Positions 20,963 to 45,407 of a stretch of DNA of 49,299 nucleotides are shown here, piece by piece. The notes below the pieces were generated by a model. The model saw only the letters and a program-made list of their open reading frames with translations. It did not search any database and was not told where the DNA came from. The position numbers were made by a program, and so were the translations under genes. The stretch covers positions 1 to 49,299 of the forward strand of contig CAZOXS010000022.1 in NCBI GenBank assembly GCA_964583785.1, read 5' to 3'. Source of the DNA: an uncultured Victivallales bacterium. GTDB lineage: Bacteria > Verrucomicrobiota > Kiritimatiellia > UBA8416. Every line of letters starts with the position of its first letter. The first letter of the stretch is position 1.

Positions 20963-21390
20963 TGATGACGATGCTGAAAAACAGTTTGTGCGTATTGATG
21001 GGGATTGGACTGCTCGCGATGACTGCGTGCGCCAAGGATGCCGAGACGCCGGCACCGGCGGCCGAGGCGAAGGTCGCCTTGCCGAAGCTGGTCGATCTGG
21101 GTGCCAAGGCTTGCATCCCCTGCAAGAAGATGGCCCCGATCCTGGAGGAACTGACCACGGAATACAAAGGCGTCTTCGATGTCGAGTTCATCGATGTCTG
21201 GCAACCCGAGAACCAGGAAAAAGCCAAGACTTACGGGATCAAGTCGATCCCGACGCAGATTTTCCTGGACTCCAAAGGTAAGGAACTGGGGCGTCATGAG
21301 GGTTTCATCGCCAAAGAGGATATCCTGAAGAAGTGGCAAGCACTTGGCGTGAGTATTAAGACGAAAGCGGATATGGAACACAACGAATGA
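20959..21390 (+). CDS. thioredoxin-fold lipoprotein (CxxC)
   Basis: Internal ATG 20959 of track ORF 20599..21390, preceded by AGGAGG. MMMTMLKNSLCVLMGIGLLAMTAC (lipobox), KACIPCKKMAPILEEL, IPTQIFLDSKGKEL. The last codons (MEHNE-stop) lie inside the first 16-nt repeat unit. Confidence 0.8.
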   Translation: MMMTMLKNSLCVLMGIGLLAMTACAKDAETPAPAAEAKVALPKLVDLGAKACIPCKKMAPILEELTTEYKGVFDVEFIDVWQPENQEKAKTYGIKSIPTQIFLDSKGKELGRHEGFIAKEDILKKWQALGVSIKTKADMEHNE

Positions 21391-21523
21391 TCGACACAAC
21401 GAATATGGGACACAACGAATTTTTTGCACAACGAATATGGAACACAGCAAATGGGGAATCATATAATATGGTAACGATGTTCACCCTTATTCCCATTCGT
21501 TGTGCAGCCCATTCGTTGTGCAA
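21379..21523. repeat. 16-nt tandem-unit palindrome: 5 forward units (CACAACGAATATGGRA) followed by 2 inverted units
   Basis: CACAACGAAT at 21379, 21395, 21411 and 21427, plus degenerate CACAGCAAAT at 21443 (exact 16-nt phase). Inverted ATTCGTTGTG at 21495 and 21511. GGGAAT/ATTCCC extends the stem around a loop of about 30 nt. Confidence 0.9.
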
Positions 21524-21570
21524 ATACATTCCTTTTTTACCGCAACTTCTCTTCCCCTATTCATTACGTA

Positions 21571-22395
21571 ATGCAATCACAAGGTGACAATGTGACTAAT
21601 GCTTTGAACGATAATCTTATCTATCCTGAGTTGTCCTACAAGATCATGGGCGCGGCGATGCACGTCCATAATCAACTGGGGCCTGGGTGGGATGAAGATG
21701 CCTATCATTCTGCATTACTACACGCGTTGCGAAAAGCCAGCCTTAAAACAGAAAGCAAGCTGCGAGGTGTGCTTAAACAGCGCGAGCTGTATGCTGACAC
21801 ATTTGAGCTGGACATCCTTGTCGAAGATTCGATCATTCTGGAATTAAAACACCTTGTGGGCAAGTTTCACCCCGCTCACATGATTCAATTGATCAATTAT
21901 CAGAAATTCTGGAAGAAACAATTAGGAATTCTGCTCAACTTTGGTCTTGATCGCCTTCAATTTGAACGGATCCCCTTTACTCCGCGTACCGGCCCATTAA
22001 CCAGTAACGATGCCTACAAACACTTTCAGGAAACCAACCCCGCAAAAGCGAACCACGTTGAATCCATTCTTCAAGCAATTGTGGACGCCCACGGGCTTGG
22101 ATATGGCACCTATGTCTACCGCAATCTTGTACGTACCGAATGTCATTTCAAAAACTGCTCCTGCGAAATGCCGGTCATCCCTCTTTATTACGACTCTTTA
22201 ATGCTCGGGGAAAAACAGGCAGACGTTCTCTGCCTTGATTCCGATCTGCTGCTATTAGTGAATGCTCAGCGCGAAAAAACCTCCGATATTCTTTTAGCGC
22301 GCATGTTGAGCTACCTTCGCAAAACCAATTTATCTGATGGCATTATCGCCACCTTTGGATCTAACGAACTATACCTCAAATATGTTTCCCCATAA
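21571..22395 (+). CDS. tandem GxxExxY-type (PD-(D/E)XK-like) protein; the second copy is degenerate
   Basis: ATG 21571 lies within ORF 21502..22395. The N-half has the family pattern (YPELSYKIMGAAMHVHNQLGPGWDEDAYHSALLHALRKASL...FELDILVEDSIILELKHL...LINYQKFWKKQLGILLNFG). The C-half repeats the pattern weakly (GLGYGTYVYRNLV...ADVLCLDSDLLLLVNAQRE...LSYLRKTNLSDGIIATFG). Visibly more AT-rich than its neighbours. Confidence 0.65.
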   Translation: MQSQGDNVTNALNDNLIYPELSYKIMGAAMHVHNQLGPGWDEDAYHSALLHALRKASLKTESKLRGVLKQRELYADTFELDILVEDSIILELKHLVGKFHPAHMIQLINYQKFWKKQLGILLNFGLDRLQFERIPFTPRTGPLTSNDAYKHFQETNPAKANHVESILQAIVDAHGLGYGTYVYRNLVRTECHFKNCSCEMPVIPLYYDSLMLGEKQADVLCLDSDLLLLVNAQREKTSDILLARMLSYLRKTNLSDGIIATFGSNELYLKYVSP

Positions 22396-22401
22396 CCTCA
22401 A

Positions 22402-22465
22402 ACATTCGCTGTGCAAAAACATTCGCTGTGCAACTCATTCGCTGTGCAAAAACATTCGTTGTGAA
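22402..22465. repeat. 4 inverted copies of the same 16/17-nt unit (CATTCGYTGTGCAAAAA)
   Basis: CATTCG at 22402, 22419, 22435 and 22452. This is the reverse complement of the upstream CACARCGAATG units. Confidence 0.9.
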
Positions 22466-35265: not shown

Positions 35266-35673
35266 ATGAGCAATGTCAATCGTGTGTTCTTGCTGGGGAA
35301 CCTGACACGGGATCCGGAATTGCGGCAGACAGCCGGCGGGTTGTCGGTCAGCGATCTGGGGGTGGCGGTATCGGAAACCTACCAGAACAAAGCGGGGGAA
35401 AAGGTCGAGACGAAGTGTTTCACGGACGTGGTGGTCTGGGGCAGGCAGGCGGAGGTTTGCAGCCAATACCTGGCCAAAGGGGCGCCGGTGATGGTCGAGG
35501 GGCGCCTGCAACTGGATCAGTGGGAGACCGAGGCGGGCGAAAAGCGCAGCCGCCTGCGCGTCAAGGCCGATCGCGTGCAGTTTCTCGGCCGCCTGCGTGG
35601 TTCCGGCGATCCGGAGGACCCACTCGAATCTGAAGGCGTCCCGCTGGACACGGCGGACGGGATTCCGTATTAA
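35266..35673 (+). CDS. ssb: single-stranded DNA-binding protein
   Basis: MSNVNRVFLLGNLTRDPELRQTAGG...VVVWGRQAEVCSQYLAKGAPVMVEGRLQLDQWE (OB fold) and an acidic C-terminal tip DTADGIPY. RBS GAGAGGAG. Confidence 0.9.
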   Translation: MSNVNRVFLLGNLTRDPELRQTAGGLSVSDLGVAVSETYQNKAGEKVETKCFTDVVVWGRQAEVCSQYLAKGAPVMVEGRLQLDQWETEAGEKRSRLRVKADRVQFLGRLRGSGDPEDPLESEGVPLDTADGIPY

Positions 35674-35733
35674 TGTCGAGAAGCGTAATCAATCAACAGT
35701 TTGTAAACCCGGTTTCAAAAGGAGAAAACCATC

Positions 35734-36282
35734 ATGGATAACCAACACGAAACAGCGGCCAACACCTACCCGCAGCCTTTGCGATTCTATCACCCGAGCC
35801 CATCGGGACACGGCGCGGCCATGCAACTTGAACCCCGTTTCAGTCATGACCCGGATGCGCGCTACAATTGCTTCTTCCTGGAGCTGGCGGAGCAACTGAC
35901 GCCGCCGCGTCAAGCCGACGGGCAGCGGGTAAACGCGACCTTCAACTGGCAGGAGAAGCTGGCGGTGAAGCTCGACTTCATGGACATTTGCGAGCTGCTC
36001 ACCGTGCTGGAGGGCCGCGCTGAACAGGTCGGCGGATCGCGGGGTGGTCTTTTTCACCAAAGCAGCACGGCCAACACGATCATCAAGTTCCAGCGCGCCG
36101 ACCAAGGCGGGTACATGCTGGGGCTTTCGCGCAAGGAGGGCACCTCGGGGCAAGCCACACGGGTGAGTATCGTGCTCAGCGAGGCCGAAGCACTCGGGCT
36201 GCGGCACATCCTGCAAAGCAGCTTGTTCTTCCTGGCCTTCCACCAGCATCTGTTCCGCTGCTGGCAGGAGCAAACCCGGTAG
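35734..36282 (+). CDS. Whirly-like (PUR/Whirly-fold) putative ssDNA-binding protein
   Basis: By eye, segment order matches plant Whirly: GAAMQLEPRF ~ KAALTVEPRAPEF; FNWQEKLAVKLDFMDICELL ~ YDWSRKQVFSLSVTEIGSII; GLFHQSS ~ EFFHDPN; IIKFQRADQGGYMLGLS ~ VLKVEPLPDGSGHFFNLS; VSIVLSEAEALGL ~ IYIPVTKAEFAVL. Not verified by an HMM. Confidence 0.5.
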   Translation: MDNQHETAANTYPQPLRFYHPSPSGHGAAMQLEPRFSHDPDARYNCFFLELAEQLTPPRQADGQRVNATFNWQEKLAVKLDFMDICELLTVLEGRAEQVGGSRGGLFHQSSTANTIIKFQRADQGGYMLGLSRKEGTSGQATRVSIVLSEAEALGLRHILQSSLFFLAFHQHLFRCWQEQTR

Positions 36283-37998: not shown

Positions 37999-38026
37999 CT
38001 TGTTGTCAATAAATCATCTTGGTCAT
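37999..38026. repeat. partial copy (R1) of the 9-nt-unit TTGAC/GTCA repeat
   Basis: CTTGTTGTCAATAAATCATCTTGGTCAT matches 39296-39323 (CTTGTTGTCAATAAGGTCATCTTGGTCAA) at all but 3 positions. It overlaps the methyltransferase stop codon. Confidence 0.8.
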
Positions 38027-39186
38027 TTCGACGGTTTCACAAATCGGATCACGCTGTAGCCGCGCCGGGGAATAATCATGGTTTCAGAAAACCGGGTCTG
38101 GATACAGCGCTCAAGGCCGGGCGCGGACTTGGCCACGAGCATGCCGGCCCCGCCCGGCTTTAAGACATGAAACGCGGTCAACACAAACAGCTCGGCGATC
38201 CGGAAATCGGAATAGTAGGGCGGATTGCCCACCACCAGATCAAAAGCACCTTTGTCCAACCCCGAATCGGACAACACCAGTGGATGCGGCTTCATTCCCA
38301 GCGCATCCAGATTCTGCCGGGTGGCTTCGATCGCCCGGCTGTGGGAGTCCACGAACGTCACCGTGGCATCCGGGTTCGCCCTCGCCAACAGGATACCGAC
38401 CAGTCCGCATCCACAGCCCATATCGAGCATCTGCAACGTCGGATTTGACCAGGTTGAGAGTTCCTTGACGGCCACCTCTGCCAGCGCCAGCCCGCCGGCG
38501 TCGGGACGCCGATGACTGAAGACGCCGGGCAACGACATCAGCGGGATGGCGTCCAGGCCGGGAACGGAAGCCGTGAACGCCGCGCGAAACACGCGCCGCT
38601 TTTCCAGCGGACGTGTCTTCTTCGCCATGACACAGAAAAATCCACGCTGGTCAGTCACTATCGTGATGTTACCGAAAAGCTGGCGGATCTGCCTGAGCCA
38701 GGTCCCGGTGTTGCCTTCATAAGCCAGCCAGCAAACGCCGCCGGGAGCGAGCTGCTCGTGCAAATCCTCCAACTGATCGAGCATTAATTCGGCCGTCGTT
38801 GTTGTCTCCGTCCCGGAAAAGAAGGCCAGATCATGGGGGCCCTGCGGAATAAAGGGCGTGCAGTCAACCGCCACGCCTCGAACCTGATTACCGGCGAGAT
38901 TCCGCTCCATCGCCTTGGCATGATGAATATCGAGCGCATGGCCGCGCACGCGTGCCTCCGGCCACTGCCTCGCCAGAACCATGGCGAGCACGCCGGTCCG
39001 GCTTCCTGTCACCAGCACATGCGCGGGGGACGTCGCCACCGTGACGGCCCGCTCGATCAGCGATGCCTCCGTCCGGTGCAACCCGGAGCGCGACACGACC
39101 CGTAGGCGCTTGTCCAGGAAAAACTGGCACGTCGCTTCCGCAAGCGGCAGATCTGTAATTTTGAATGTGACCATCCGATTGCTCAT
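38023..39186 (-). CDS. two-domain class I SAM-dependent methyltransferase (RsmC/RlmG-like, MTS domain)
   Basis: Trimmed to MSNRMVTFKITDL (ATG 39186); the longer track ORF to 39333 reads through the 9-nt repeats. C-domain LDMGCGCGLVGILLA (motif I) and DLVVGNPPYY (motif IV). The N-domain is also MT-like (VLVTGSRTGVLAMVLA). Confidence 0.8.
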   Translation of the reverse strand: MSNRMVTFKITDLPLAEATCQFFLDKRLRVVSRSGLHRTEASLIERAVTVATSPAHVLVTGSRTGVLAMVLARQWPEARVRGHALDIHHAKAMERNLAGNQVRGVAVDCTPFIPQGPHDLAFFSGTETTTTAELMLDQLEDLHEQLAPGGVCWLAYEGNTGTWLRQIRQLFGNITIVTDQRGFFCVMAKKTRPLEKRRVFRAAFTASVPGLDAIPLMSLPGVFSHRRPDAGGLALAEVAVKELSTWSNPTLQMLDMGCGCGLVGILLARANPDATVTFVDSHSRAIEATRQNLDALGMKPHPLVLSDSGLDKGAFDLVVGNPPYYSDFRIAELFVLTAFHVLKPGGAGMLVAKSAPGLERCIQTRFSETMIIPRRGYSVIRFVKPSK

Positions 39187-39260
39187 TCCATTCTCGATTC
39201 TGGAGTCCTTCGCACCAGCAACGGCGGCGCGCACGTCAGCCGCCAGAGACGCGGGGAAGG

Positions 39261-39337
39261 TTGTTGACAAGGTTGACCTTATTGACCCTGTTGACCTTGT
39301 TGTCAATAAGGTCATCTTGGTCAACCCGGTCAAAAAA
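39261..39337. repeat. 9-nt tandem-unit palindrome R2 (5 x TTGAC-type units then 3 x GTCA-type units)
   Basis: TTGAC/TTGTC at 39264, 39273, 39282, 39291 and 39300. GTCA at 39311, 39320 and 39329. Exact 9-nt phase, ending GGTCAAAAAAA. Confidence 0.9.
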
Positions 39338-39351
39338 ATTGCAGTCTGCCC

Positions 39352-40101
39352 TCATGCCGGTCTCGTCCCCTTGCAATCCGGGTAGGCGGTGCATCCCCAG
39401 AAATCGCCCTTGGCCGACCGGCGCCCGCGCATGGGCTTGCCGCATTGGGGGCATTCCGGTGTGTCAGCCGCTTGCTGCTGGTCGCGCACTTCGACCCGCC
39501 GGGCGGTCAGGCGCTCGCGGAATCCGCCGCCCTCCTCGAAGGCCTTGCCTTGCGACTCCTTCAGGCGCTTGAGCATCTTCAGGACGCGGCCGAGCAGGAT
39601 GAGCATGACGTTGGCGACCACTACACCATCGTCGGAATCGAGCCAGCGGGCGTATTTCCGGCGCTGCGCCAGCGCGTGGCGGGCCGACTCATGCACCATG
39701 TCGTCAGTAAAAGGTGCATCATCGAGCGCGATGGCATTGACGGCCTTGACTTCGGGATCATGTACCGACCACGGCAGTTCGCCGCGGTCGAGGATGAAGA
39801 TCTCGTAATCGCCGCGCAGCTCGCTCAAACTCGCGCGGGCGACATCGGTCAGGCGCATCTCGGTGTCCTTCGAGGTCGAGGCGCGCTCCGAACCCTCGAT
39901 AATGTTCTGGCGTCCGCTGCGGGCGGCCTGGGTCATCTGGTCGTACTGCCGCCCCTTGGGGTCGTAGAATTTGTCGGTCTCGCGATGGTCGAAGGTCAGG
40001 AACTGGCGGCAGAACCGCAAGGTATCGAGCTGCACGATCGTGGCAAGCGTAAAGGCGTGCAGCCGACGAAAACCGCCGTGCTTGTCAAAAAGCTCAGGCA
40101 T
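39352..40101 (-). CDS. four-helix-bundle protein (23S rRNA IVS-protein family, with suffix domain) fused to a topoisomerase-type C4 zinc finger
   Basis: Trimmed to MPELFDKHGGFRRLHAF (ATG 40101, AAGGAG RBS); the track ORF to 40428 runs through the repeats and into the tmRNA gene. QAARSGRQNIIEGSERASTSKDTEMRLTDVARASLSELRGDYE matches the family pattern. C-terminal CPQCGKPMRGRRSAKGDFWGCTAYPDCKGT. Confidence 0.75.
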   Translation of the reverse strand: MPELFDKHGGFRRLHAFTLATIVQLDTLRFCRQFLTFDHRETDKFYDPKGRQYDQMTQAARSGRQNIIEGSERASTSKDTEMRLTDVARASLSELRGDYEIFILDRGELPWSVHDPEVKAVNAIALDDAPFTDDMVHESARHALAQRRKYARWLDSDDGVVVANVMLILLGRVLKMLKRLKESQGKAFEEGGGFRERLTARRVEVRDQQQAADTPECPQCGKPMRGRRSAKGDFWGCTAYPDCKGTRPA

Positions 40102-40123
40102 GGGGTGCTCCTTGCGGGGTGGG

Positions 40124-40277
40124 GTGACCTGGTTGACCTTATTGACCTTGTTGCCAATCGGGCCAATAAGGCCAACAGGTTTAACACCGGCATCATACAA
40201 ACCACTATCACCCGCGTCAACAAGGTCATTTGACAAAAACCCGTCAGCAAGCTCAATCCGGTCAATAGGGTCATCAG
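40124..40277. repeat. 9-nt tandem-unit palindrome R3 (about 17 phased units), same orientation as R2
   Basis: GGTTGACCTTATTGACC (40131-40147) is identical to 39272-39288. TGACC at 40125, 40134 and 40143, then TGCCA/GGCCA units. Inverted GTCAAC/GGTCAT/GTCAAT units from 40216 to 40275. Confidence 0.9.
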
Positions 40278-40309
40278 CATGGTGTTGGCCATTGCCGGAA
40301 TGGCGGACA

Positions 40310-40355
40310 GCCTTCGCCAAGGCCCCGGCTTGCCTACCGAAGCCTTGGCGAAGGC
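40310..40355 (-). terminator. 13-bp perfect hairpin abutting the tmRNA 3' CCA
   Basis: GCCTTCGCCAAGG (40310-40322) and CCTTGGCGAAGGC (40343-40355) with a 20-nt loop. No U-tract follows on the minus strand, so the terminator function is uncertain. Confidence 0.45.
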
Positions 40356-40712
40356 TGGTGGAGGCGGCGGGAGTCGAACCCGCGTCCGCAGTGGAGTCAC
40401 TCAAGTATCTACGTGTGTATTCTGCCATTAGGTCTCGCCACGGTAACTACGGACAGACACGCTGTCACCGCCGCCAGTCTCAGCATTGTTTCGCAGGTCG
40501 CGCCTGAGACGCACACGCCCGACTATCCTGCTGTCGTCGCCCCGGTCCGTTTAGCAGGTGTCAACGGCGGAACGCGTGGCCCGTTATTTAGGCCGCGAGA
40601 GCTAATTCAGTATCAGCACTTAATGTTTTGCCCGGATTTTTTACGAGGCCAACCAGACATCCTCGACACGCAACCTCAGCTTCAACCATCACGTCGAAAC
40701 CAAATCGCCCCC
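40356..40712 (-). ncRNA. ssrA: tmRNA (transfer-messenger RNA)
   Basis: Minus-strand 5' GGGGGCGATTTGGTTTCGACG... and 3' ...GGACGCGGGTTCGACTCCCGCCGCCTCCACCA (T-arm plus acceptor with a G3:U pair). Tag frame GGC AAA ACA TTA AGT GCT GAT ACT GAA TTA GCT CTC GCG GCC TAA gives (A)GKTLSADTELALAA, with the stop at 40588-40590. Confidence 0.92.
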
Positions 40713-40787: not shown

Positions 40788-43541
40788 CTACTCGCATGCG
40801 GCGGCGCGAATCCGATGCAGTTTCCTGACGGATGCTATCATTTGATGCAGTTGTTCCAAAACCCCGAATTGCTCAAGAACCGCGCCTTCAAACGCAAGCC
40901 TGTCCGCCCGTTCAATCTCTGCATCAAACGCCTGGATATCACGTCTCCTTATACGCGCAAATGCAGCCAAGATGCGTTTTCGGCCATCTGGCGAGATTCG
41001 GGCGGGATCAAGCATTCGCATTTGCCGGGCAAGCTTGGTGGCATTCAAATCCAAGGCTCCAAGCCCCCGACCGAACCCCAGTGCTTCCAGATAAAAAGCC
41101 CCTGTCAACGAGCACAGAAGGGCATGGCACAGGAGTACATCGGCAGACGGTTTTGCTGTGAACCGAATCAGGCGTTGATTGACAAATGAACGCGGCTGAA
41201 GGCGTGCAAAGAAGAGTCGATTTCCCGGATTCATGGATACAGCCAGATCAGCCGTTGTATCCGGCCGCATTTCGTACCAATGGTATCCTCTTTTTGCCAG
41301 AACCTCGGGGAGCGGTTTTCCTTTTTCGTTTTTCGCGTGCTCAAACCGGCGAATCCAGGCCAGCGCACCGGCATGCCCCAGCCGTTCAAGCTCTTCAATC
41401 GAGCGTGAACAGCAAAAGGCGATTCCATCGGCTTTTGCATCAAGCTGCCGGATATCGGCGGCGCTTTTAACAACGGGAAGCAGGTACTCATCCTCAATTC
41501 CGGACTGCGCCTCAGGGAAAAAGAGCTTATCCCAGCCCCGCCGCTCACCGCGATGGATGTCGAACAAGTCAGCCACCGGTATCAGCAAGGAACGGATCTC
41601 ATCCAGCCACTGGCAATTCGAGAAACACGCCGTCCAGCAAAGGCCATCGCGCTCAAATTGATCAAGAGAATGCTCACTCACCTGGTTCAGCCATACAGCG
41701 GATTCTTCGCCGGGGCGTCCTTGGCCAATCGAATCCGCCATGATGGTGACATGATCCTCGCTCCAGGACGAAAGGGGGTGTTGCGTGACAGCAAAGATGA
41801 CACGGTGGTCAAGTGGCTGTGCGCTAGGTTGTGGTTGCTTCTTCAGTACCAGAATATTAGTCACGACATCCGCATCACGAAACCACCTTCCCGCTCCAGA
41901 CGTCACCACGCATTCGATGGTGTAGAACTGGCGCAGTTGCCGCCGGAATGCCAGCCCCCATTCTGCGCCCATCCATGAGTTCGGGACAATTACCCCTATG
42001 CGCCCGTTATCGCCAAGCAATCGCCATAGATGGAGCAATATCGACACAAAATAATCCGAGCGGCCATCAATTTCCTCCCCCGTGTGCCCCGTCACAAAAC
42101 GGCGGATATCAGCAATCGCCGAGTCCTCGCACATCCAGTCTTCAAACCGGATAAAAGGCGGATTCAGGATGATGCAAGGAAAGGCGGGGAGCGCTTCAGA
42201 AAAAACGGCTCCAGTGCCCGCATCGACAAACGAGACACGAAGGCCCGTGTGCAGGGTCATCACGTCCTGTTGAAAAACACGCAGCGTTTCGAAAGGTGCA
42301 TCACCTTGGGTTAGCGATAAGGTCGCAAACTGCAAGGGCATCGCGTAACGGTCCGATGCCCATGTTGTCTTCACCGCTTCAGAAGTCGTGAGCCCATGAT
42401 GTACCTTTTGCGCGAGAACTTCACGGGCTATCGTTCCCGTCCCGCAGCAGGGATCAAGGATCGGGGCATTCAAATCATCTGCCGCAAGCCTGACCAGCAG
42501 CGCGGCCAGAAGCACCGGTGTGCAATATTGCCCGGCAATTTTGCGCTGGCTTTCGCGGCGGACCGCATGAAGCGTCTCCTGGAGTAGCCGCTGCTCAATA
42601 TCGGGAAGGTTTATGTCCTGCAGGTACCGGTTGAACGCCAGCACCGCCTGCCAGTTCTCGTGCAACAGCCAATCCGACCCCAGCCGGGATCTGAAAATCT
42701 GCGCAAAGTCATGTTTTCCGGACAGTTGACGAAAACCGGACTCCGCTTCGGTAATGGAGCCTGATGGCGTGAGCTCCGTTACCAAGCGCGCCTCCGCCAC
42801 GAATCGCTGAAGATAGTGCGCGAAAAGAAAACGCTGTATCCAGTGCAGCAGGATTTCCGTGGCCAGAATCGTGTACTTTGTATTTTCGGGCGGATTGCCA
42901 TGCTCGGATTTAACCCCTCGCCACCACTGTGATATTTCCGTGCGATGAATACGCGACCCGCGCTCGGCCGTCCTTGCCGCCACCGCAAGCGAACCAGCCT
43001 GATCCTGAAGGATGGCTTCGATCACGGTATTCAAGTGTGCGGGCAACGGCTTTGAGCAGGACAGAATACCCTGTTCAAATAAATCGTTGAGATCGTCAAT
43101 GACCGTGCTCAGCGTTTCCACCCATGCGGATTTGTTCGCGATCACATCTGCCCGCGTCCGCACCCTTGCACAATGCCAGGTTCGTACCACTTCCCGACGG
43201 GCATTCTCGACGCGATAAAGCACGGCGTCACGAGCATTCCAAACGAGAAACGAGGAAAGCCCCAATCGCCTGCATTTTTCCTGTGCATTATCAAGCAAGT
43301 CCGAGTTGGTAACCGGCGTGTCCGGCATTTTCAGTTCCCAGCCTTGCAGTACGGCGCTACGGGAAGGGTCGCCAAACAAGAGCACATCGGGGAAAAGCAT
43401 GTTCCCGCTACCTGTTGCGGAAACACCCCATTCCCCGCCTGCGCTTTGAATGCGTCGGCAACGCTGGCCTGCCAGTCGATTGATCTCGCTGATCAGATCA
43501 ACAGACCAGGCCCGTTCGTTGATGGTCGGTACCGTGCTCAT
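40788..43541 (-). CDS. Type IIG-like restriction-modification fusion (N-terminal PD-ExK nuclease + gamma-class N6-adenine methyltransferase + C-terminal specificity region)
   Basis: 917 aa. FPDVLLFGD...LQGWELKMP (PD..ExK). QYCTPVLLAALLV...ILDPCCGTGTIA (motifs X/I). CIILNPPFIRF (motif IV NPPF). Long C-terminal region. Confidence 0.75.
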   Translation of the reverse strand: MSTVPTINERAWSVDLISEINRLAGQRCRRIQSAGGEWGVSATGSGNMLFPDVLLFGDPSRSAVLQGWELKMPDTPVTNSDLLDNAQEKCRRLGLSSFLVWNARDAVLYRVENARREVVRTWHCARVRTRADVIANKSAWVETLSTVIDDLNDLFEQGILSCSKPLPAHLNTVIEAILQDQAGSLAVAARTAERGSRIHRTEISQWWRGVKSEHGNPPENTKYTILATEILLHWIQRFLFAHYLQRFVAEARLVTELTPSGSITEAESGFRQLSGKHDFAQIFRSRLGSDWLLHENWQAVLAFNRYLQDINLPDIEQRLLQETLHAVRRESQRKIAGQYCTPVLLAALLVRLAADDLNAPILDPCCGTGTIAREVLAQKVHHGLTTSEAVKTTWASDRYAMPLQFATLSLTQGDAPFETLRVFQQDVMTLHTGLRVSFVDAGTGAVFSEALPAFPCIILNPPFIRFEDWMCEDSAIADIRRFVTGHTGEEIDGRSDYFVSILLHLWRLLGDNGRIGVIVPNSWMGAEWGLAFRRQLRQFYTIECVVTSGAGRWFRDADVVTNILVLKKQPQPSAQPLDHRVIFAVTQHPLSSWSEDHVTIMADSIGQGRPGEESAVWLNQVSEHSLDQFERDGLCWTACFSNCQWLDEIRSLLIPVADLFDIHRGERRGWDKLFFPEAQSGIEDEYLLPVVKSAADIRQLDAKADGIAFCCSRSIEELERLGHAGALAWIRRFEHAKNEKGKPLPEVLAKRGYHWYEMRPDTTADLAVSMNPGNRLFFARLQPRSFVNQRLIRFTAKPSADVLLCHALLCSLTGAFYLEALGFGRGLGALDLNATKLARQMRMLDPARISPDGRKRILAAFARIRRRDIQAFDAEIERADRLAFEGAVLEQFGVLEQLHQMIASVRKLHRIRAAACE

Positions 43542-44656
43542 GCCACCGCCGTTCTCCTGTCGAGTTCCCGCAGCCGCTGCCGGGCTATGCCGACGTAATC
43601 GATCTGCACGCTTTTAAAGAGATGCACATCCTTGTTCTGCTCGATCCCGACAAACCGCCGCCCCTCCATGGCCGCCGCCACCAGGAAACTACCACTACCG
43701 AAGGCATTATCCAGAACCAACGCACCCGGGTCAGTATATGTGCTTACCAGGTAACGGCCCAGTTCAACCGGTTTTTGTGTCGGATGCCAGACCGAGCCCT
43801 CGCTCTCGGCCGTCTTGAAATACACAACATCGGTGGGATAACGCTGCCCTTCGCTCTGTACGCGGGCAGGCAGGAAATCGCCATAGCTGCCGGAAAGCTG
43901 GTTCTTGCGAACCCCTTTGTCATAAGGTGCGCCGCTTCCCATGACCGGGTGATAGACAGGCTGACTTTCATAGAAGACGCAAATGTCCTCATGCTTTCGT
44001 AAAGGTTGCTTTTTTGCATTCAGGAAGTTCGTCGGCTTGGATTTCTCCCACACAAGCTTGTACTTGAACCAGCGTTCATTGCTTAACATGAGCTTGGCGG
44101 TGAAAATGCCATGCGACGTCAGGACAATTGCACCGCCGGGTTTTATGATCCGTCGGTATTGCCGCCATAGTGCATCCAGCGGGATGATGCTGTCCCACTT
44201 GTTCTGTGTGGTGCCATACGGAAGATCACATAGAATCAGGTCTATACAGCGATCCGGGAAAAAAGGAAGAATCTCGAGGCAATCCCCTTCAAAAAGCCCA
44301 CCATCAAGCTCGGATCCGTGCAGCATTCGATCGGGAGTAAACCGCCTGCCGTCCCTGGGGTCGTAGGCAGGCGCGAGTTGACTGTGCTTTTTCGCTTCCG
44401 GCATCGGTTCCGCATCCGGCCACAAGATCATCTGTTCCGCACCCAGAAGCTCAGGACACTCACGGTGCGAAAGCAGGTGGTAGCCCGATTTCCGAAACAA
44501 GCCGTGAGCATCCGTCAGGTTAGGGCCAGCCACCTCACGCACAATTGACGAATCAAATATCCTTCTCGCATAGGACTTTACGAACGCATCCATATCGACA
44601 GGCTGGTATGTCTGTCGTTTCCGTGTGCAGGGGTAGATGGTTTGTACTTTTTTCAT
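43538..44656 (-). CDS. beta-class DNA methyltransferase (N4-C/N6-A, PF01555-like) with N-terminal extension
   Basis: Trimmed to MKKVQTIYPC (ATG 44656) to avoid overlapping the upstream gene. DLILCDLPYG (motif IV) precedes DNAFGSGSFLVAA (motif I). 4-nt overlap with the R-M fusion gene. Confidence 0.8.
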   Translation of the reverse strand: MKKVQTIYPCTRKRQTYQPVDMDAFVKSYARRIFDSSIVREVAGPNLTDAHGLFRKSGYHLLSHRECPELLGAEQMILWPDAEPMPEAKKHSQLAPAYDPRDGRRFTPDRMLHGSELDGGLFEGDCLEILPFFPDRCIDLILCDLPYGTTQNKWDSIIPLDALWRQYRRIIKPGGAIVLTSHGIFTAKLMLSNERWFKYKLVWEKSKPTNFLNAKKQPLRKHEDICVFYESQPVYHPVMGSGAPYDKGVRKNQLSGSYGDFLPARVQSEGQRYPTDVVYFKTAESEGSVWHPTQKPVELGRYLVSTYTDPGALVLDNAFGSGSFLVAAAMEGRRFVGIEQNKDVHLFKSVQIDYVGIARQRLRELDRRTAVA

Positions 44657-44705
44657 GCCTTGTGTCAATATGATTAACATAGCGGCATCACAAGTGCAAC
44701 GGCAT

Positions 44706-45407
44706 TCAGCGTCGGCTAACACAACGTGCATACCCCTCGCGGGCGTTTGCCACCAGCCACTGCCAGACAACCCGGCCCGCGTCCGTACCCAAGGCGGCGG
44801 CCTCGGCGGCTGTGGCGTCGGAGACCATCACCACCCAGAGGCAGATGCCCAGCACGTTGGCGAGGTAGATCACAGCATAGGAAAACAGGCGGCCCTGGTC
44901 GCGGATGTCCGACTGGCACTGGAGCAGGGCGCTGATCGTGAAGGTCACGTGGAATCCCCAGGTCAGGCCGACGAGCCCCAGCCAGAACAGATGAAAGCGC
45001 TCGACCGGATAAAAGAGCATCAGGAGGTAATAGAGGCCGATCAGCAGGACGGTATAGAGCGGGAAGAAGTAGGGCGCCAGGGTGATCAGGAAGTTGGTTT
45101 TCGAGAGCATTACCGAGCCGCGGTCCTCCTTGACGCTGATTTTCGCGATCGATGCCCCCATCAGCAGTCCCCAAAGCGCGTGGGTCAACTCATGCGCCAG
45201 GATATAACTGCGCACCGGGCGGGGAAACAGCATGAACATCACCAGCCAGAGCACAAACCCGGCAAACAGCGCCAGCGCGGGCAGCGGCAGGAAGACTGCC
45301 GTCTCCGTCCGGGCGGCGGCCTGCAGCAGCCCCCAGAGTACCTGCGAGACCACGGCACAAACCGGCAGCAGCAGCAGGCCGATCATGAATTTGAGCAGTT
45401 TTAGCAT
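44706..45407 (-). CDS. polytopic membrane protein with HExxH (DUF3267/M50B-like putative metallopeptidase)
   Basis: YILAHELTHALWGLL lies within a multi-TM protein. Start set at MLKLLKFMIGLLLLP (45407); the longest ORF reaches 45452 and would overlap the ZIP gene. Confidence 0.55.
   Translation of the reverse strand: MLKLLKFMIGLLLLPVCAVVSQVLWGLLQAAARTETAVFLPLPALALFAGFVLWLVMFMLFPRPVRSYILAHELTHALWGLLMGASIAKISVKEDRGSVMLSKTNFLITLAPYFFPLYTVLLIGLYYLLMLFYPVERFHLFWLGLVGLTWGFHVTFTISALLQCQSDIRDQGRLFSYAVIYLANVLGICLWVVMVSDATAAEAAALGTDAGRVVWQWLVANAREGYARCVSRR

What the first reader, a model, noticed from the sequence alone, without database searches (positions are those of the whole stretch)
37999..40277. 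Same-orientation 9-nt-periodic TTGAC/GTCA arrays delimit two single-gene units next to the tmRNA gene
Three related blocks lie in the same orientation: R1 37999-38026, R2 39261-39337 and R3 40124-40277. R2 and R3 share an identical 17-mer (GGTTGACCTTATTGACC). R1 and R2 share 25 of 28 positions (CTTGTTGTCAATAA..TCATCTTGGTCA). All keep a strict 9-nt phase, and R2 and R3 switch from TTGAC-type to GTCA-type units, so each is self-complementary. They bracket exactly one gene each: the RsmC-like methyltransferase and the four-helix-bundle/zinc-finger gene. The whole set sits on the 3' side of ssrA, a classic integration hotspot. The layout resembles a cassette array with structured recombination or processing sites, but no integrase is present in the window. 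The arrays also generate misleading ORF extensions (38023..39333 and 39352..40428).
Basis: partly seen in the sequence, partly recalled or inferred. Interest (0 to 1): 0.75.

Follow-up and report, generated by a model that had tools for sequence, protein, structure and literature searches.

The report
Repeat arrays flanking a four-helix-bundle gene
The 9-base-periodic TTGAC/GTCAA arrays are real, but they are not integron-like cassette borders: they are the two flanks of one small, very conserved gene (a four-helix-bundle plus zinc-ribbon protein) that carries such arrays in more than a dozen bacterial phyla, most likely as that protein's own binding sites.

Summary
R2 (39261-39337) and R3 (40124-40277) are strictly 9-nt-phased TTGAC-type then GTCAA-type arrays, and R1 (37999-38026) is a 28-nt copy of part of R2.

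The cassette-array reading is not supported. In 80 loci from about 12 phyla, homologues of the gene between R3 and R2 (four-helix bundle + TIGR04258 suffix + Topo-I zinc ribbon) carry the same nnRTTGACv arrays directly upstream and downstream. Core spacings were 9/18/27/36 nt and essentially nothing else, and no such array appeared in shuffles.

The RsmC-like methyltransferase is a vertically inherited host gene. R1 is missing in the closest relative and sits at the edge of a ~25-kb indel.

The protein is about 82% identical across phyla although synonymous sites are nearly saturated. Diverged clades keep the architecture but change motif and period: AGACG at 7 nt; ATAACG, CCGGAATA and others at 8 nt; CATGG and others at 9 nt. 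Plain S23p-type genes and a GxxExxY gene in this window (21371-22463) are built the same way.

Best reading: an IVS-like single-gene module whose arrays are cis sites read by its own protein, giving autoregulation and/or RNA processing, with mobility possible. Binding is inferred, not shown.

The parts
40356..40712 (-). tmRNA (ssrA) gene. The module lies on its 3' side. This is context, not part of the module.
   Evidence: ARAGORN; Rfam RF00023, 175 bits. No tmRNA in 60 other loci that carry the module.
40213..40277 (-). R3 distal block. Forward RTTGAC-type units on the gene strand (ATGACC, TTGACC, TTGAGC, CTGACG, ..., ATGACC, TTGACG), all in one 9-nt phase.
   Evidence: Conserved with small changes in L083.
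40192..40220 (-). Sigma-70-like promoter inside R3. The -35 TTGACG is itself an array unit, followed by a 17-nt spacer and -10 TATGAT.
   Evidence: Consensus scan, 10 of 12 matches. Both hexamers are identical in L083; the spacer differs at 2 of 17 positions. Function is inferred.
40124..40178 (-). R3 proximal array. Three variant forward units (TTGGCC, TTGGCC, TTGGCA) followed by three inverted AGGTCA units, ending 22 nt before the ATG.
   Evidence: L083 has four TTGACC/TTGACA units here. Folds as RNA at -35.6 kcal/mol, z -4.4, with G.U pairs at the variant position.
39352..40101 (-). Gene for a 249-aa protein: extended four-helix bundle (S23p/IVS/Avd superfamily, weak match), TIGR04258 'four helix bundle suffix' domain and a C-terminal Topo-I-type C4 zinc ribbon.
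   Evidence: Pfam and NCBIfam. 2419 homologues. AF2 pLDDT 85.7. Foldseek finds only the zinc ribbon (9gda_F) and the S23 family (2rld) as relatives.
39261..39337 (.). R2, the downstream array of the module: four TTGAC-type then four GTCAA-type units, with the same reading on either strand. It also lies 75 nt upstream of the methyltransferase start.
   Evidence: Identical to L083 apart from one substitution across the units. RNA fold -36.5 kcal/mol, z -5.9.
38023..39186 (-). RsmC-like two-domain SAM methyltransferase. This is a host gene and not part of the module.
   Evidence: PF05175, E 3.6e-32. Homologues show graded identity and those that carry a name are mostly Kiritimatiellia/Kiritimatiellota. 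Homologues in L085 and L086 lack arrays.
37999..38026 (-). R1, a 28-nt ectopic copy of R2's units TTGACC-AAG-ATGACC-TTA-TTGACA-ACAAG (25 of 28 identical). It overlaps the methyltransferase stop codon and sits at a synteny breakpoint.
   Evidence: Absent in L083, where the methyltransferase has a different C-terminus. It marks one junction of a ~25-kb segment that L083 lacks.

Best explanation
R3 and R2 are the upstream and downstream cis-element arrays of one self-contained, single-gene module. The module encodes the four-helix-bundle/suffix/zinc-ribbon protein and resembles the ORF-bearing intervening sequences (IVS) of 23S rRNA, except that it sits between ordinary genes.

Each array is a row of RTTGAC sites on a strict 9-nt register, about 4 forward then about 3 inverted units. 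I propose that the module's own protein reads these sites sequence-specifically and cooperatively. The protein is probably oligomeric, because S23p and Avd relatives are pentamers.

In this window the upstream array contains the promoter, and its -35 hexamer is one array unit. Binding there would therefore autoregulate the gene. The forward/inverted layout also lets each array fold as a hairpin in the transcript. That could insulate or process the module's mRNA from neighbouring genes, as RNase III does for IVSs.

R1 is not a third site. It is a stray copy of part of R2 at a rearrangement junction.

Shown: the anatomy, the exclusive linkage to the gene, the conservation, and the clade-specific motif and period. 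Inferred: that the protein binds the arrays, which nucleic-acid form it reads (dsDNA, ssDNA or RNA), and the regulatory outcome.
For: 1. Linkage. In 752 kb around 81 homologues, 171 chains of at least 3 exactly phased units lie within 300 nt of the gene, 14 more overlap its stop codon and 8 lie elsewhere; shuffles gave none. By a stricter count, 66 of 81 upstream and 49 of 81 downstream flanks have arrays, against 0 of 810 shuffled flanks.
2. Register. TGAC-to-TGAC spacings are 9/18/27/36 nt (257/160/82/33 cases) with only a handful of counts at any other distance. The order is forward-then-inverted in 51 of 51 upstream arrays.
3. Selection on the motif, not on the stem. The unit consensus is nnRTTGACv with free spacers. 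The motif is constant across about 12 phyla, while four-fold-degenerate sites of the gene are 0.44 identical against 0.36 expected by chance, at 82% amino-acid identity. Upstream and downstream arrays of one locus share no spacers beyond chance.
4. Covariation with the protein. Clade 2 (40-47% identical) has AGACG/CGTCT at 7 nt. Clade 3 has 8-nt arrays (ATAACGnn, CCGGAATA, TCGAAAnn) in one subclade and 9-nt arrays (CATGG.., TAACGTTCY) in another. Plain S23p-type genes have their own units: GGAAGTTT, GGGAAAA, GGGCAGGA and CAGGTGA.
5. Literature. The Coxiella IVS carries 2-3 GACAGAT heptamers just upstream of its S23p ORF (PMC4990558).
6. The protein ends in a Topo-I-type nucleic-acid-binding zinc ribbon.
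7. A promoter-like site uses an array unit as its -35; both hexamers are identical in L083.
Against: - There is no binding experiment.
- Co-divergence of a gene and its flanks is expected for any element by descent alone.
- An unrelated family (GxxExxY, PD-(D/E)XK) has the same flanking architecture. The arrays might therefore serve an element-level role, such as an RNA stem or recombination, rather than protein-specific recognition.
- The zinc ribbon is conserved across clades with different motifs, so it cannot be the specificity determinant.
- By the strict count, 15 of 81 upstream and 32 of 81 downstream flanks lack an array. Downstream arrays that start on the stop codon are partly missed by that count.
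- The 8-nt clade has strongly sense-biased direct repeats (TAACG 103 against CGTTA 12). That fits RNA or ssDNA better than symmetric dsDNA operators.
- Arrays fold somewhat better than chimeric controls (z -0.8, p about 0.01), so some selection for pairing cannot be excluded.
Confidence: 0.55

Rival explanations
1. The arrays act purely at the RNA level, as in rRNA intervening sequences. The forward and inverted units pair in the transcript, either within each array or between the two flanks. This gives RNase III substrates that cut the inserted gene's RNA out of host operon transcripts. No module-specific protein recognition would be involved.
For: - R2 and proximal R3 fold at -36.5 and -35.6 kcal/mol, z -5.9 and -4.4.
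- Permuting the spacers worsens folding in 66 arrays (mean z -1.8, p 1e-13).
- The window's TTGGCC variant units still pair with GGTCAA through G.U pairs.
- Plain 4HB and GxxExxY genes have forward units upstream and inverted units downstream, like IVS stems.
- The Coxiella IVS is excised by RNase III (PMC4990558).
- Modules often sit inside operons: hsdS-hsdR, fliR-flhB, cas6-cas4.
Against: - A stem alone does not explain why RTTGAC itself stays invariant across phyla while the spacers drift.
- Chimeras of forward and inverted blocks from different loci fold almost as well as native arrays (-25.4 against -28.7 kcal/mol).
- The forward-to-inverted gap is out of register in about half of the arrays.
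- Spacer positions do not covary in the symmetric register.
- The 8-nt clade has direct repeats only, which cannot pair.
Confidence: 0.2
2. The arrays are the ends, or att-like sites, of a mobile mini-element, and the encoded protein is the end-binding or recombination factor. This would resemble transposons with subterminal repeat arrays, or cassettes that integrate by recombination between an array on a circle and an array in the chromosome.
For: - Neighbourhoods are very diverse; only about 26 of 80 loci are next to Type I RM genes.
- Modules are inserted inside conserved operons.
- In clade 2, the upstream and downstream arrays are near-identical direct repeats of about 120 nt.
- Solo in-frame arrays occur in an HsdR surface loop in two loci and in hsdM in one.
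- R1 lies at a rearrangement junction.
- A tRNA lies within about 250 nt in 4 of 60 loci, plus ssrA in this window.
- Mobility has long been proposed for IVSs (PMC4990558).
Against: - No recombinase, transposase or nuclease domain was detected in the protein.
- No target-site duplications or empty sites were found.
- Relatives of the window's (main-clade) protein are essentially absent from IMG/VR and PLSDB.
- Saturated synonymous sites, together with family-level shared positions, argue for long vertical residence.
- In the main clade the two arrays of a locus share no spacers, yet their cores are maintained. That points to an in-situ function.
Confidence: 0.15
3. One reading: an integron-like array of two gene cassettes (the methyltransferase and the four-helix-bundle gene), separated by structured recombination sites and integrated at the ssrA hotspot.
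For: Three related blocks lie in one orientation next to ssrA. Each block is self-complementary.
Against: - The methyltransferase is vertically inherited and has no arrays in relatives.
- R1 is a 28-nt fragment, absent from the closest relative, at an indel edge.
- The arrays follow the four-helix-bundle gene in 80 other loci, and none of the 60 scanned has an ssrA.
- No integrase was found.
Confidence: 0.03
4. The arrays are clusters of host-factor sites, for example sigma-70 -35 hexamers (TTGACA) that give a broad-host promoter or a sigma sponge. They would be unrelated to the encoded protein.
For: RTTGAC equals the -35 consensus. One unit serves as the -35 of a promoter-like site in R3.
Against: - Sister clades have unrelated motifs and 7- or 8-nt registers.
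- Arrays also lie downstream of the gene and in inverted orientation.
- The window scan found only one match, and the 9-nt register places a -10-like hexamer 10, 19 or 28 nt from a -35-like unit rather than the usual 16-18 nt (my reading of the unit geometry; no cross-locus scan was run).
Confidence: 0.05

Closest known systems
ORF-bearing intervening sequences (IVS) of 23S rRNA encoding S23p-family four-helix-bundle proteins (Leptospira, Coxiella, Xanthomonas-type S23p; PF05635 / TIGR02436)
   Same: - A small gene of the same superfamily, flanked by inverted repeats that form a stem.
- Coxiella has 2-3 tandem GACAGAT heptamers just upstream of the ORF, with copy number varying between strains.
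- It is regarded as a selfish element of unknown mobility and unknown protein function (PMC4990558).
- Plain 4HB genes fetched here show the same tandem-unit flanks.
   Different: - The module is not in an rRNA gene; Rfam finds only the tmRNA in the window.
- The protein is twice as long, with a TIGR04258 suffix domain and a Topo-I zinc ribbon.
- Both flanks carry forward-plus-inverted arrays on a strict 9-nt lattice.
- The protein is under extreme purifying selection rather than decaying as in Coxiella.
Operator/centromere arrays of small cooperative DNA binders (omega repressor 7-bp heptads, MetJ 8-bp metboxes, ParG/ParR repeats) and iteron sets flanking repA in plasmid P1 (from my own knowledge)
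   Same: - Rows of short sites at 7-10-bp spacing, in direct and inverted orientation.
- The sites overlap the promoter of the binder's own gene.
- Specificity co-varies with the protein.
- In P1, repeats lie on both sides of the gene.
   Different: The protein here is not a ribbon-helix-helix or Rep fold. The loci are chromosomal single-gene modules with no partition or replication partner genes. Binding has not been tested.
Type III toxin-antitoxin loci (ToxIN) and the TRAP-trp leader (from my own knowledge)
   Same: A tandem repeat array lies next to the gene of an oligomeric protein that binds one repeat per subunit. Repeat and protein are cognate.
   Different: The repeats here are 7-9 nt rather than about 36 nt, and they lie on both flanks. 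There is no ToxN/AbiQ fold or TRAP fold, and no evidence of toxicity.
Integron gene cassettes with attC sites
   Same: An imperfect palindromic element lies at the boundary of a single gene, in one orientation.
   Different: There is no IntI, and the sites are periodic multi-unit arrays rather than attC-type sites. Only one gene family is bracketed, and the neighbouring 'cassette' is a host gene.

Membership tests
TIGR04258 four-helix-bundle suffix domain proteins | Match to the TIGR04258 model above its curated cut-off | tested here: met
   49.2 bits against a cut-off of 40, residues 161-206. JGI and NCBI name the homologues the same way.
S23p / 23S rRNA IVS protein / Avd superfamily (PF05635, TIGR02436) | Match to PF05635 or TIGR02436 above the cut-off; four-helix-bundle fold | tested here: inconclusive
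   PF05635 scores 22.5 bits (cut-off 33.8) and TIGR02436 scores 23.2 (cut-off 24). Clade-2 relatives carry precomputed PF05635 hits. The AF2 model is helical and 2rld (S23 family) appears with TM 0.45-0.53, but E is about 0.6-1.
23S rRNA intervening sequence (IVS) element | Located inside a 23S rRNA gene (helix 25 or 45) | tested here: not met
   Rfam finds no rRNA in the window. The 80 other loci lie between protein-coding genes.
23S rRNA intervening sequence (IVS) element | Flanking inverted repeats able to form a stem around or next to the ORF | tested here: met
   Each array folds with z -4.4 to -5.9. R2 and R3 arms are 70-73% complementary over 56-61 nt.
23S rRNA intervening sequence (IVS) element | Excision from the transcript by RNase III | not testable with these tools
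   Needs RNA-seq or RACE in wild type and an rnc mutant.
Integron cassette array | IntI tyrosine recombinase with attI and Pc adjacent | tested here: not met
   No integrase family among the window proteins scanned.
Integron cassette array | Cassette content varies between close relatives while attC sites bound each gene | tested here: not met
   L083 has the same two genes. R1 is absent there. More distant methyltransferase homologues have no arrays.
Transposon with subterminal repeat arrays | Encoded transposase or recombinase catalytic domain | tested here: not met
   Pfam, NCBIfam, PADLOC and Foldseek give only the 4HB and the zinc ribbon.
Transposon with subterminal repeat arrays | Target-site duplications, empty sites, multiple copies per genome | not tested
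   No matched empty site was available. Two loci (L025, L031) come from one assembly.
Type III toxin-antitoxin | ToxN/AbiQ-type endoribonuclease and repeats of about 36 nt upstream only | tested here: not met
   No such domain. Units are 9 nt and lie on both flanks.
Type I restriction-modification accessory gene | Constant location within hsdM/S/R operons | tested here: not met
   Only about 26 of 80 loci have hsd genes next to the module. In this window the neighbour across ssrA is a Type IIG enzyme.

The most novel reading that the evidence does not exclude
The four-helix-bundle/suffix/zinc-ribbon proteins, and by extension S23p/IVS proteins and GxxExxY nucleases, define a widespread and undescribed class of array-flanked mini-elements. 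In this class an oligomeric, possibly pentameric ring protein reads one short repeat per subunit on a clade-specific 7-, 8- or 9-nt register. That would be a simple and evolvable protein-nucleic-acid recognition code. It could serve either as the end-recognition machinery of a new kind of mobile element or as a TRAP / Type III-TA-like RNA-repeat switch linked to restriction-modification and defence islands.
Probability: 0.25. Interest if true: 0.85.

Novelty: new variant of a known kind. Interest (0 to 1): 0.62.

Why it matters
The function of S23p/IVS-type four-helix-bundle proteins has been open since the 1990s. Their only studied relative is Avd of diversity-generating retroelements.

This finding gives a concrete, testable handle. 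A very abundant subfamily (2419 homologues in one search) is about 82% identical across phyla and is flanked on one or both sides, in nearly every locus examined, by a strict 9-nt lattice of RTTGAC sites. Sister clades use other motifs on 7-, 8- or 9-nt lattices.

If the protein reads these arrays, this is a new family of sequence-specific nucleic-acid binders with a simple, swappable specificity. It would also explain how IVS-like elements regulate, process or move themselves.

There is a practical consequence as well. The arrays create false N-terminal ORF extensions (322-, 306- and 281-aa database entries for a ~250-aa protein), and in-frame array insertions occur in neighbouring genes.

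Tried and rejected
- Register-based covariation test of spacer triplets. It showed only weak enrichment (0.41/0.34 against 0.32/0.28). This led me to reject a strictly conserved hairpin. A more sensitive folding test then showed some extra pairing, so I softened that conclusion.
- Recent horizontal transfer as the reason for 80% identity. Rejected because four-fold-degenerate sites are near saturation.
- Phage or plasmid carriage. IMG/VR gave only a zinc-finger fragment, and PLSDB gave one distant Prevotella homologue plus topoisomerase zinc fingers.
- Obligate Type I RM component. Rejected: about 26 of 80 loci.
- First AF2 run on 31 near-identical sequences. Uninformative (pLDDT 47). The second run, with clade 2 added, gave pLDDT 85.7, but Foldseek found no functional analogue.
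- Duplication of one array at integration. Upstream and downstream arrays of main-clade loci share no spacers beyond chance.
- Search for more plain 4HB genes within the fetched loci. It found only the L088/L090 copy.
- Literature searches for 'four helix bundle suffix', TIGR02436, PF05635, and TTGACC with 9-bp tandem repeats. None described such arrays.
- Terminator reading of R2. The T-run precedes the hairpin on the gene strand rather than following it.
Full report
**1. Observation**

The three blocks exist as described.
- R2 (39261-39337) reads TTGACA/TTGACC x4, then TTGTCA/GGTCA x4, on one 9-nt lattice.
- R3 (40124-40277) keeps a single phase for about 150 nt. On the gene strand there is a distal run of RTTGAC-type units, then a degenerate middle, then three TTGGCC/TTGGCA units and three AGGTCA units.
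- R1 (37999-38026) repeats 25 of 28 bases of R2, including R2's spacers.
- TTGACCN3TTGACC with up to 2 mismatches occurs 24 times against 3.6 expected. About 15 of these hits lie within R2 and R3, the only clusters. TRF finds the period-9 arrays.

All relevant genes lie on the minus strand:
- tmRNA at 40356-40712.
- A 249-aa protein at 39352-40101. It has a weak S23p/IVS four-helix-bundle match, a clear TIGR04258 'suffix' domain and a Topo-I C4 zinc ribbon.
- An RsmC-like methyltransferase at 38023-39186.

**2. Which gene owns the arrays**

The four-helix-bundle protein has 2419 database homologues. The best 120 are 78-99% identical and come from many phyla. The methyltransferase's homologues, by contrast, show graded identity, and those that carry a name are mostly Kiritimatiellia. 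The window therefore most likely comes from a Kiritimatiellota bacterium, and the methyltransferase is a host gene.

I fetched 80 genomic loci with the four-helix-bundle gene. They come from Verrucomicrobiota, Planctomycetota, Lentisphaerota, Kiritimatiellota, Armatimonadota, Acidobacteriota, Nitrospirota, Rhodothermales, Synergistota, Desulfuromonadales, Sumerlaeota and Hydrogenedentota. Nearly every locus shows the same arrays directly upstream and downstream of the gene.

The numbers:
- TGAC-to-TGAC distances in 162 flanks are 9, 18, 27 and 36 nt (257, 160, 82 and 33 cases), with only a handful of counts at any other distance.
- The unit consensus is nnRTTGACv.
- Upstream arrays have about 4 forward then about 3 inverted units. 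The order is forward-then-inverted in 51 of 51 cases, and the array usually ends about 20-35 nt before the ATG. Downstream arrays start at or on the stop codon (TGA-C).
- In 752 kb, 171 chains of at least 3 exact units lie within 300 nt of the gene, 14 more overlap its stop codon, 8 lie elsewhere, and none appear in shuffles.
- By a stricter count, 66 of 81 upstream and 49 of 81 downstream flanks qualify, against 0 of 810 shuffled flanks.

**3. The methyltransferase and R1**

The closest relative, L083/L084, has a methyltransferase 87% identical at the protein level and is 94% identical in DNA over this stretch. It begins within the ssrA-side hairpin and has the same R3-gene-R2-methyltransferase order. 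Its R2 is identical apart from one substitution across the units. It has no R1: homology stops exactly where R1 begins, and its methyltransferase has a different C-terminus.

The gene that follows the methyltransferase in L083 lies at 11602-13064 in the window. The window therefore carries an extra ~25 kb (13075-38000) between the two. This segment encodes ArsP, an RND efflux system, ArsA, ACR3 and a chromate transporter. R1 sits at one junction only.

More distant methyltransferase homologues (77% and 69%) have no arrays and no four-helix-bundle gene nearby. None of 60 other loci has a tmRNA, although 4 have a tRNA within about 250 nt. The two-cassette, ssrA-integron reading is therefore not supported.

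**4. Evolutionary behaviour**

Across 77 genes the median amino-acid identity is 82%. Identity at four-fold-degenerate sites is only 0.44, against 0.36 expected from composition alone. The similarity is therefore due to very strong purifying selection over long divergence, not to recent transfer.

Pairs with high synonymous identity come from closely related assemblies, such as the Prosthecobacter/Verrucomicrobiaceae and Terrimicrobiaceae loci, and share neighbours. This indicates vertical inheritance within families.

Neighbourhoods are otherwise diverse. About 26 of 80 loci are in Type I RM operons, typically hsdS-module-hsdR. The rest lie next to assorted housekeeping genes. In the window, a Type IIG RM enzyme (PADLOC E 4e-235) and a Type II methyltransferase lie just across ssrA. 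Relatives of the window's protein are essentially absent from IMG/VR and PLSDB.

**5. Hairpin or binding sites?**

Each array is an imperfect palindrome and folds well as RNA. R2 gives -36.5 kcal/mol (z -5.9) and proximal R3 gives -35.6 kcal/mol (z -4.4). Several results argue that pairing is not the main constraint:
- The gap between the forward and inverted blocks is in register (10, 19 or 28 nt) in only about half of the arrays.
- Spacer triplets are barely more complementary than between-locus controls.
- Chimeras that join a forward block to inverted blocks from other loci fold almost as well as native arrays (-25.4 against -28.7 kcal/mol; z -0.8, p about 0.01).

Most of the pairing therefore comes from the cores themselves. 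What is conserved is the RTTGAC word and its 9-nt register, while the spacers drift, and the two arrays of a locus share no spacers. That is the signature of a sequence-specific trans factor.

**6. Covariation with the protein**

An exhaustive representative search showed full-length relatives at 35-53% identity (alignment).
- Clade 2 (P0264-like, 40-47% identical to the window protein) has the same layout but uses (G)AGACG then CGTCT(C) units on a 7-nt register. These modules sit between fliR and flhB, in a glycosyltransferase operon, and in a Type I RM operon.
- Clade 3 (80 metagenomic loci) splits by N-terminal sequence. One subclade has 8-nt arrays (ATAACGnn, CCGGAATA, TCGAAAnn). These are strongly biased to the sense strand (TAACG 103 against CGTTA 12). 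The other subclade has 9-nt arrays (CATGG.., TAACGTTCY).
- Plain 4HB genes behave alike: GGAAGTTT/AAACTTCC in L088; GGGAAAA/TTTTCCC in Nostoc; GGGCAGGA then CTCCTGC in Gemmatirosa; CAGGTGA x8 / TCACCTG x4 between cas6 and cas4 in Anabaena sp. 90.

The literature offers one precedent. The Coxiella 23S rRNA IVS is described as a selfish element excised by RNase III. It has 2-3 tandem GACAGAT heptamers just upstream of its S23p ORF. S23p of Xanthomonas is a pentamer of four-helix bundles, and PF05635 is homologous to Avd of DGRs (PMC4990558; PMC10053308). No paper in the searchable library describes the arrays reported here.

**7. The protein**

With clade 2 added to the alignment, AF2 gives pLDDT 85.7: a long helical bundle followed by a three-stranded zinc ribbon. 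Foldseek finds nothing significant. The only recognisable hits are the Topo-I zinc ribbon (9gda_F, rmsd 1.9 over 38 residues) and the S23-family structure 2rld.

The zinc ribbon and the QM..AARS..NI.EGS helix are conserved in all clades. The N-terminal region and the stretch between the conserved helices vary. If the protein reads the arrays, specificity should lie in those variable regions.

**8. Local details in the window**

A sigma-70-like promoter lies inside R3. Its -35 TTGACG (40215-40220) is an array unit, and its -10 TATGAT is at 40192-40197. Both hexamers are identical in L083, where the 17-nt spacer differs at two positions. This puts the proximal array between the promoter and the ATG, the position of an operator or 5' UTR element.

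Compared with L083, the window has lost one unit, and all three remaining forward units carry the same A-to-G change (TTGACC to TTGGCC), in a background of about 6% divergence. This points to concerted turnover of units by slippage or conversion. The change keeps RNA pairing through G.U pairs.

**9. Arrays outside the module**

Solo in-frame arrays occur in neighbouring genes. Two independent GTCA 9-nt arrays replace the usual MSGPPKDGEPSPYFGEY loop of HsdR in L015 and L047, and one lies in hsdM in L032. Together with R1, this shows that array fragments are occasionally copied 0.8-1.4 kb away.

The window also holds a second array-flanked mini-gene. It is a GxxExxY/PD-(D/E)XK_3 gene (ORF 21502-22395), with CACAACGAAT x5 and two inverted copies upstream, and four inverted copies downstream. 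GxxExxY genes on plasmids show the same design.

**10. Conclusion**

R3 and R2 are the flanking cis arrays of an IVS-like single-gene module. The most economical mechanism is cooperative, register-dependent recognition of the RTTGAC units by the module's own, probably oligomeric, protein. This would autoregulate the gene at the promoter embedded in the array. Hairpin formation in the transcript is a likely second function, and element mobility is an open possibility.

Binding, the nucleic-acid form that is read, and the biological pay-off are all inferences. The same architecture around an unrelated nuclease family is the main reason for caution.

Noticed in passing
window 21371-22463: A second array-flanked mini-gene. 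A GxxExxY / PD-(D/E)XK_3 gene (ORF 21502-22395, TIGR04256 at 121.7 bits) has CACAACGAAT units x5 (16-nt period, 21371-21453) plus two inverted copies (21492-21522) upstream, and four inverted ATTCG(C/T)TGTG units (17-nt period, 22400-22463) downstream. GxxExxY genes on Gemmatirosa and Bernardetia plasmids have analogous arrays (L183, L184).
   Followed up: partly
window 13075-38000: About 25 kb present here but absent between the methyltransferase and the next gene in the closest relative L083. It encodes ArsP permease, an RND efflux system (OEP/HlyD/AcrB), ArsA, an ACR3-like SBF transporter, a chromate transporter, SSB and a sulfatase, so part of it looks like a metal-resistance island. R1 lies at one junction and nothing array-like lies at the other (about 13070).
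   Followed up: partly
window 40788-44770: A Type IIG restriction-modification enzyme (917 aa, PADLOC REase_MTase_IIG, E 4e-235) and an adjacent Type II N6/N4 DNA methyltransferase (410 aa) lie immediately upstream of ssrA. Here too the module sits beside an RM system, as in about a third of other loci.
   Followed up: partly
L015 3769-3843; L047 6351-6437; L032 3703-3747: In-frame solo 9-nt GTCA/TGAC arrays lie inside neighbouring genes. Two independent arrays replace the usual 13-17-aa loop (such as MSGPPKDGEPSPYFGEY) of HsdR, and one lies in hsdM, 0.8-1.4 kb from the module.
   Followed up: partly
window 40152-40178 compared with L083 176-212: All three proximal forward units carry the same A-to-G change (TTGACC to TTGGCC/TTGGCA), and one unit is missing relative to L083, in a background of 94% identity. 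This suggests concerted evolution of units. It is unexplained whether the variant weakens the sites.
   Followed up: partly
L011, L021, L023, L043 (and ssrA in the window and L083): A tRNA gene lies within about 250 nt of the module in 4 of 60 loci. That is roughly ten times what tRNA density would predict (my rough estimate). No tmRNA occurs in any of the 60.
   Followed up: no
L088 / L090 2039-6271: In a Kiritimatiellae-type contig, the flagellar export genes fliR and flhB are separated by a clade-2 four-helix-bundle/zinc-ribbon module plus a barnase-barstar pair. A plain 127-aa 4HB module follows flhB. L089 lacks the latter.
   Followed up: partly
L054 5754 onward; L056 4242 onward; L024 4576-4687; L109: Some loci have greatly expanded arrays: CCCCGTCAA repeated at least 9 times, CACCATCAA repeated 5 times and followed by CACCGTCAA units, a 13-unit forward chain, and TAACGTTCY repeated about 15-20 times on each flank.
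   Followed up: no
window 11169-11286 and 12666-12797: Other tandem repeats that I did not examine: 7-nt AGAACCA about 7 times and AAAGTCG about 4 times, plus a 38-nt unit repeated twice, all inside or near the large ORF 10402-13074.
   Followed up: no
window 35266-36282: An SSB gene is followed by a 182-aa ORF with a weak Whirly-like hit (E 0.008). The two genes lie about 2 kb inside the R1-side edge of the 25-kb segment.
   Followed up: no
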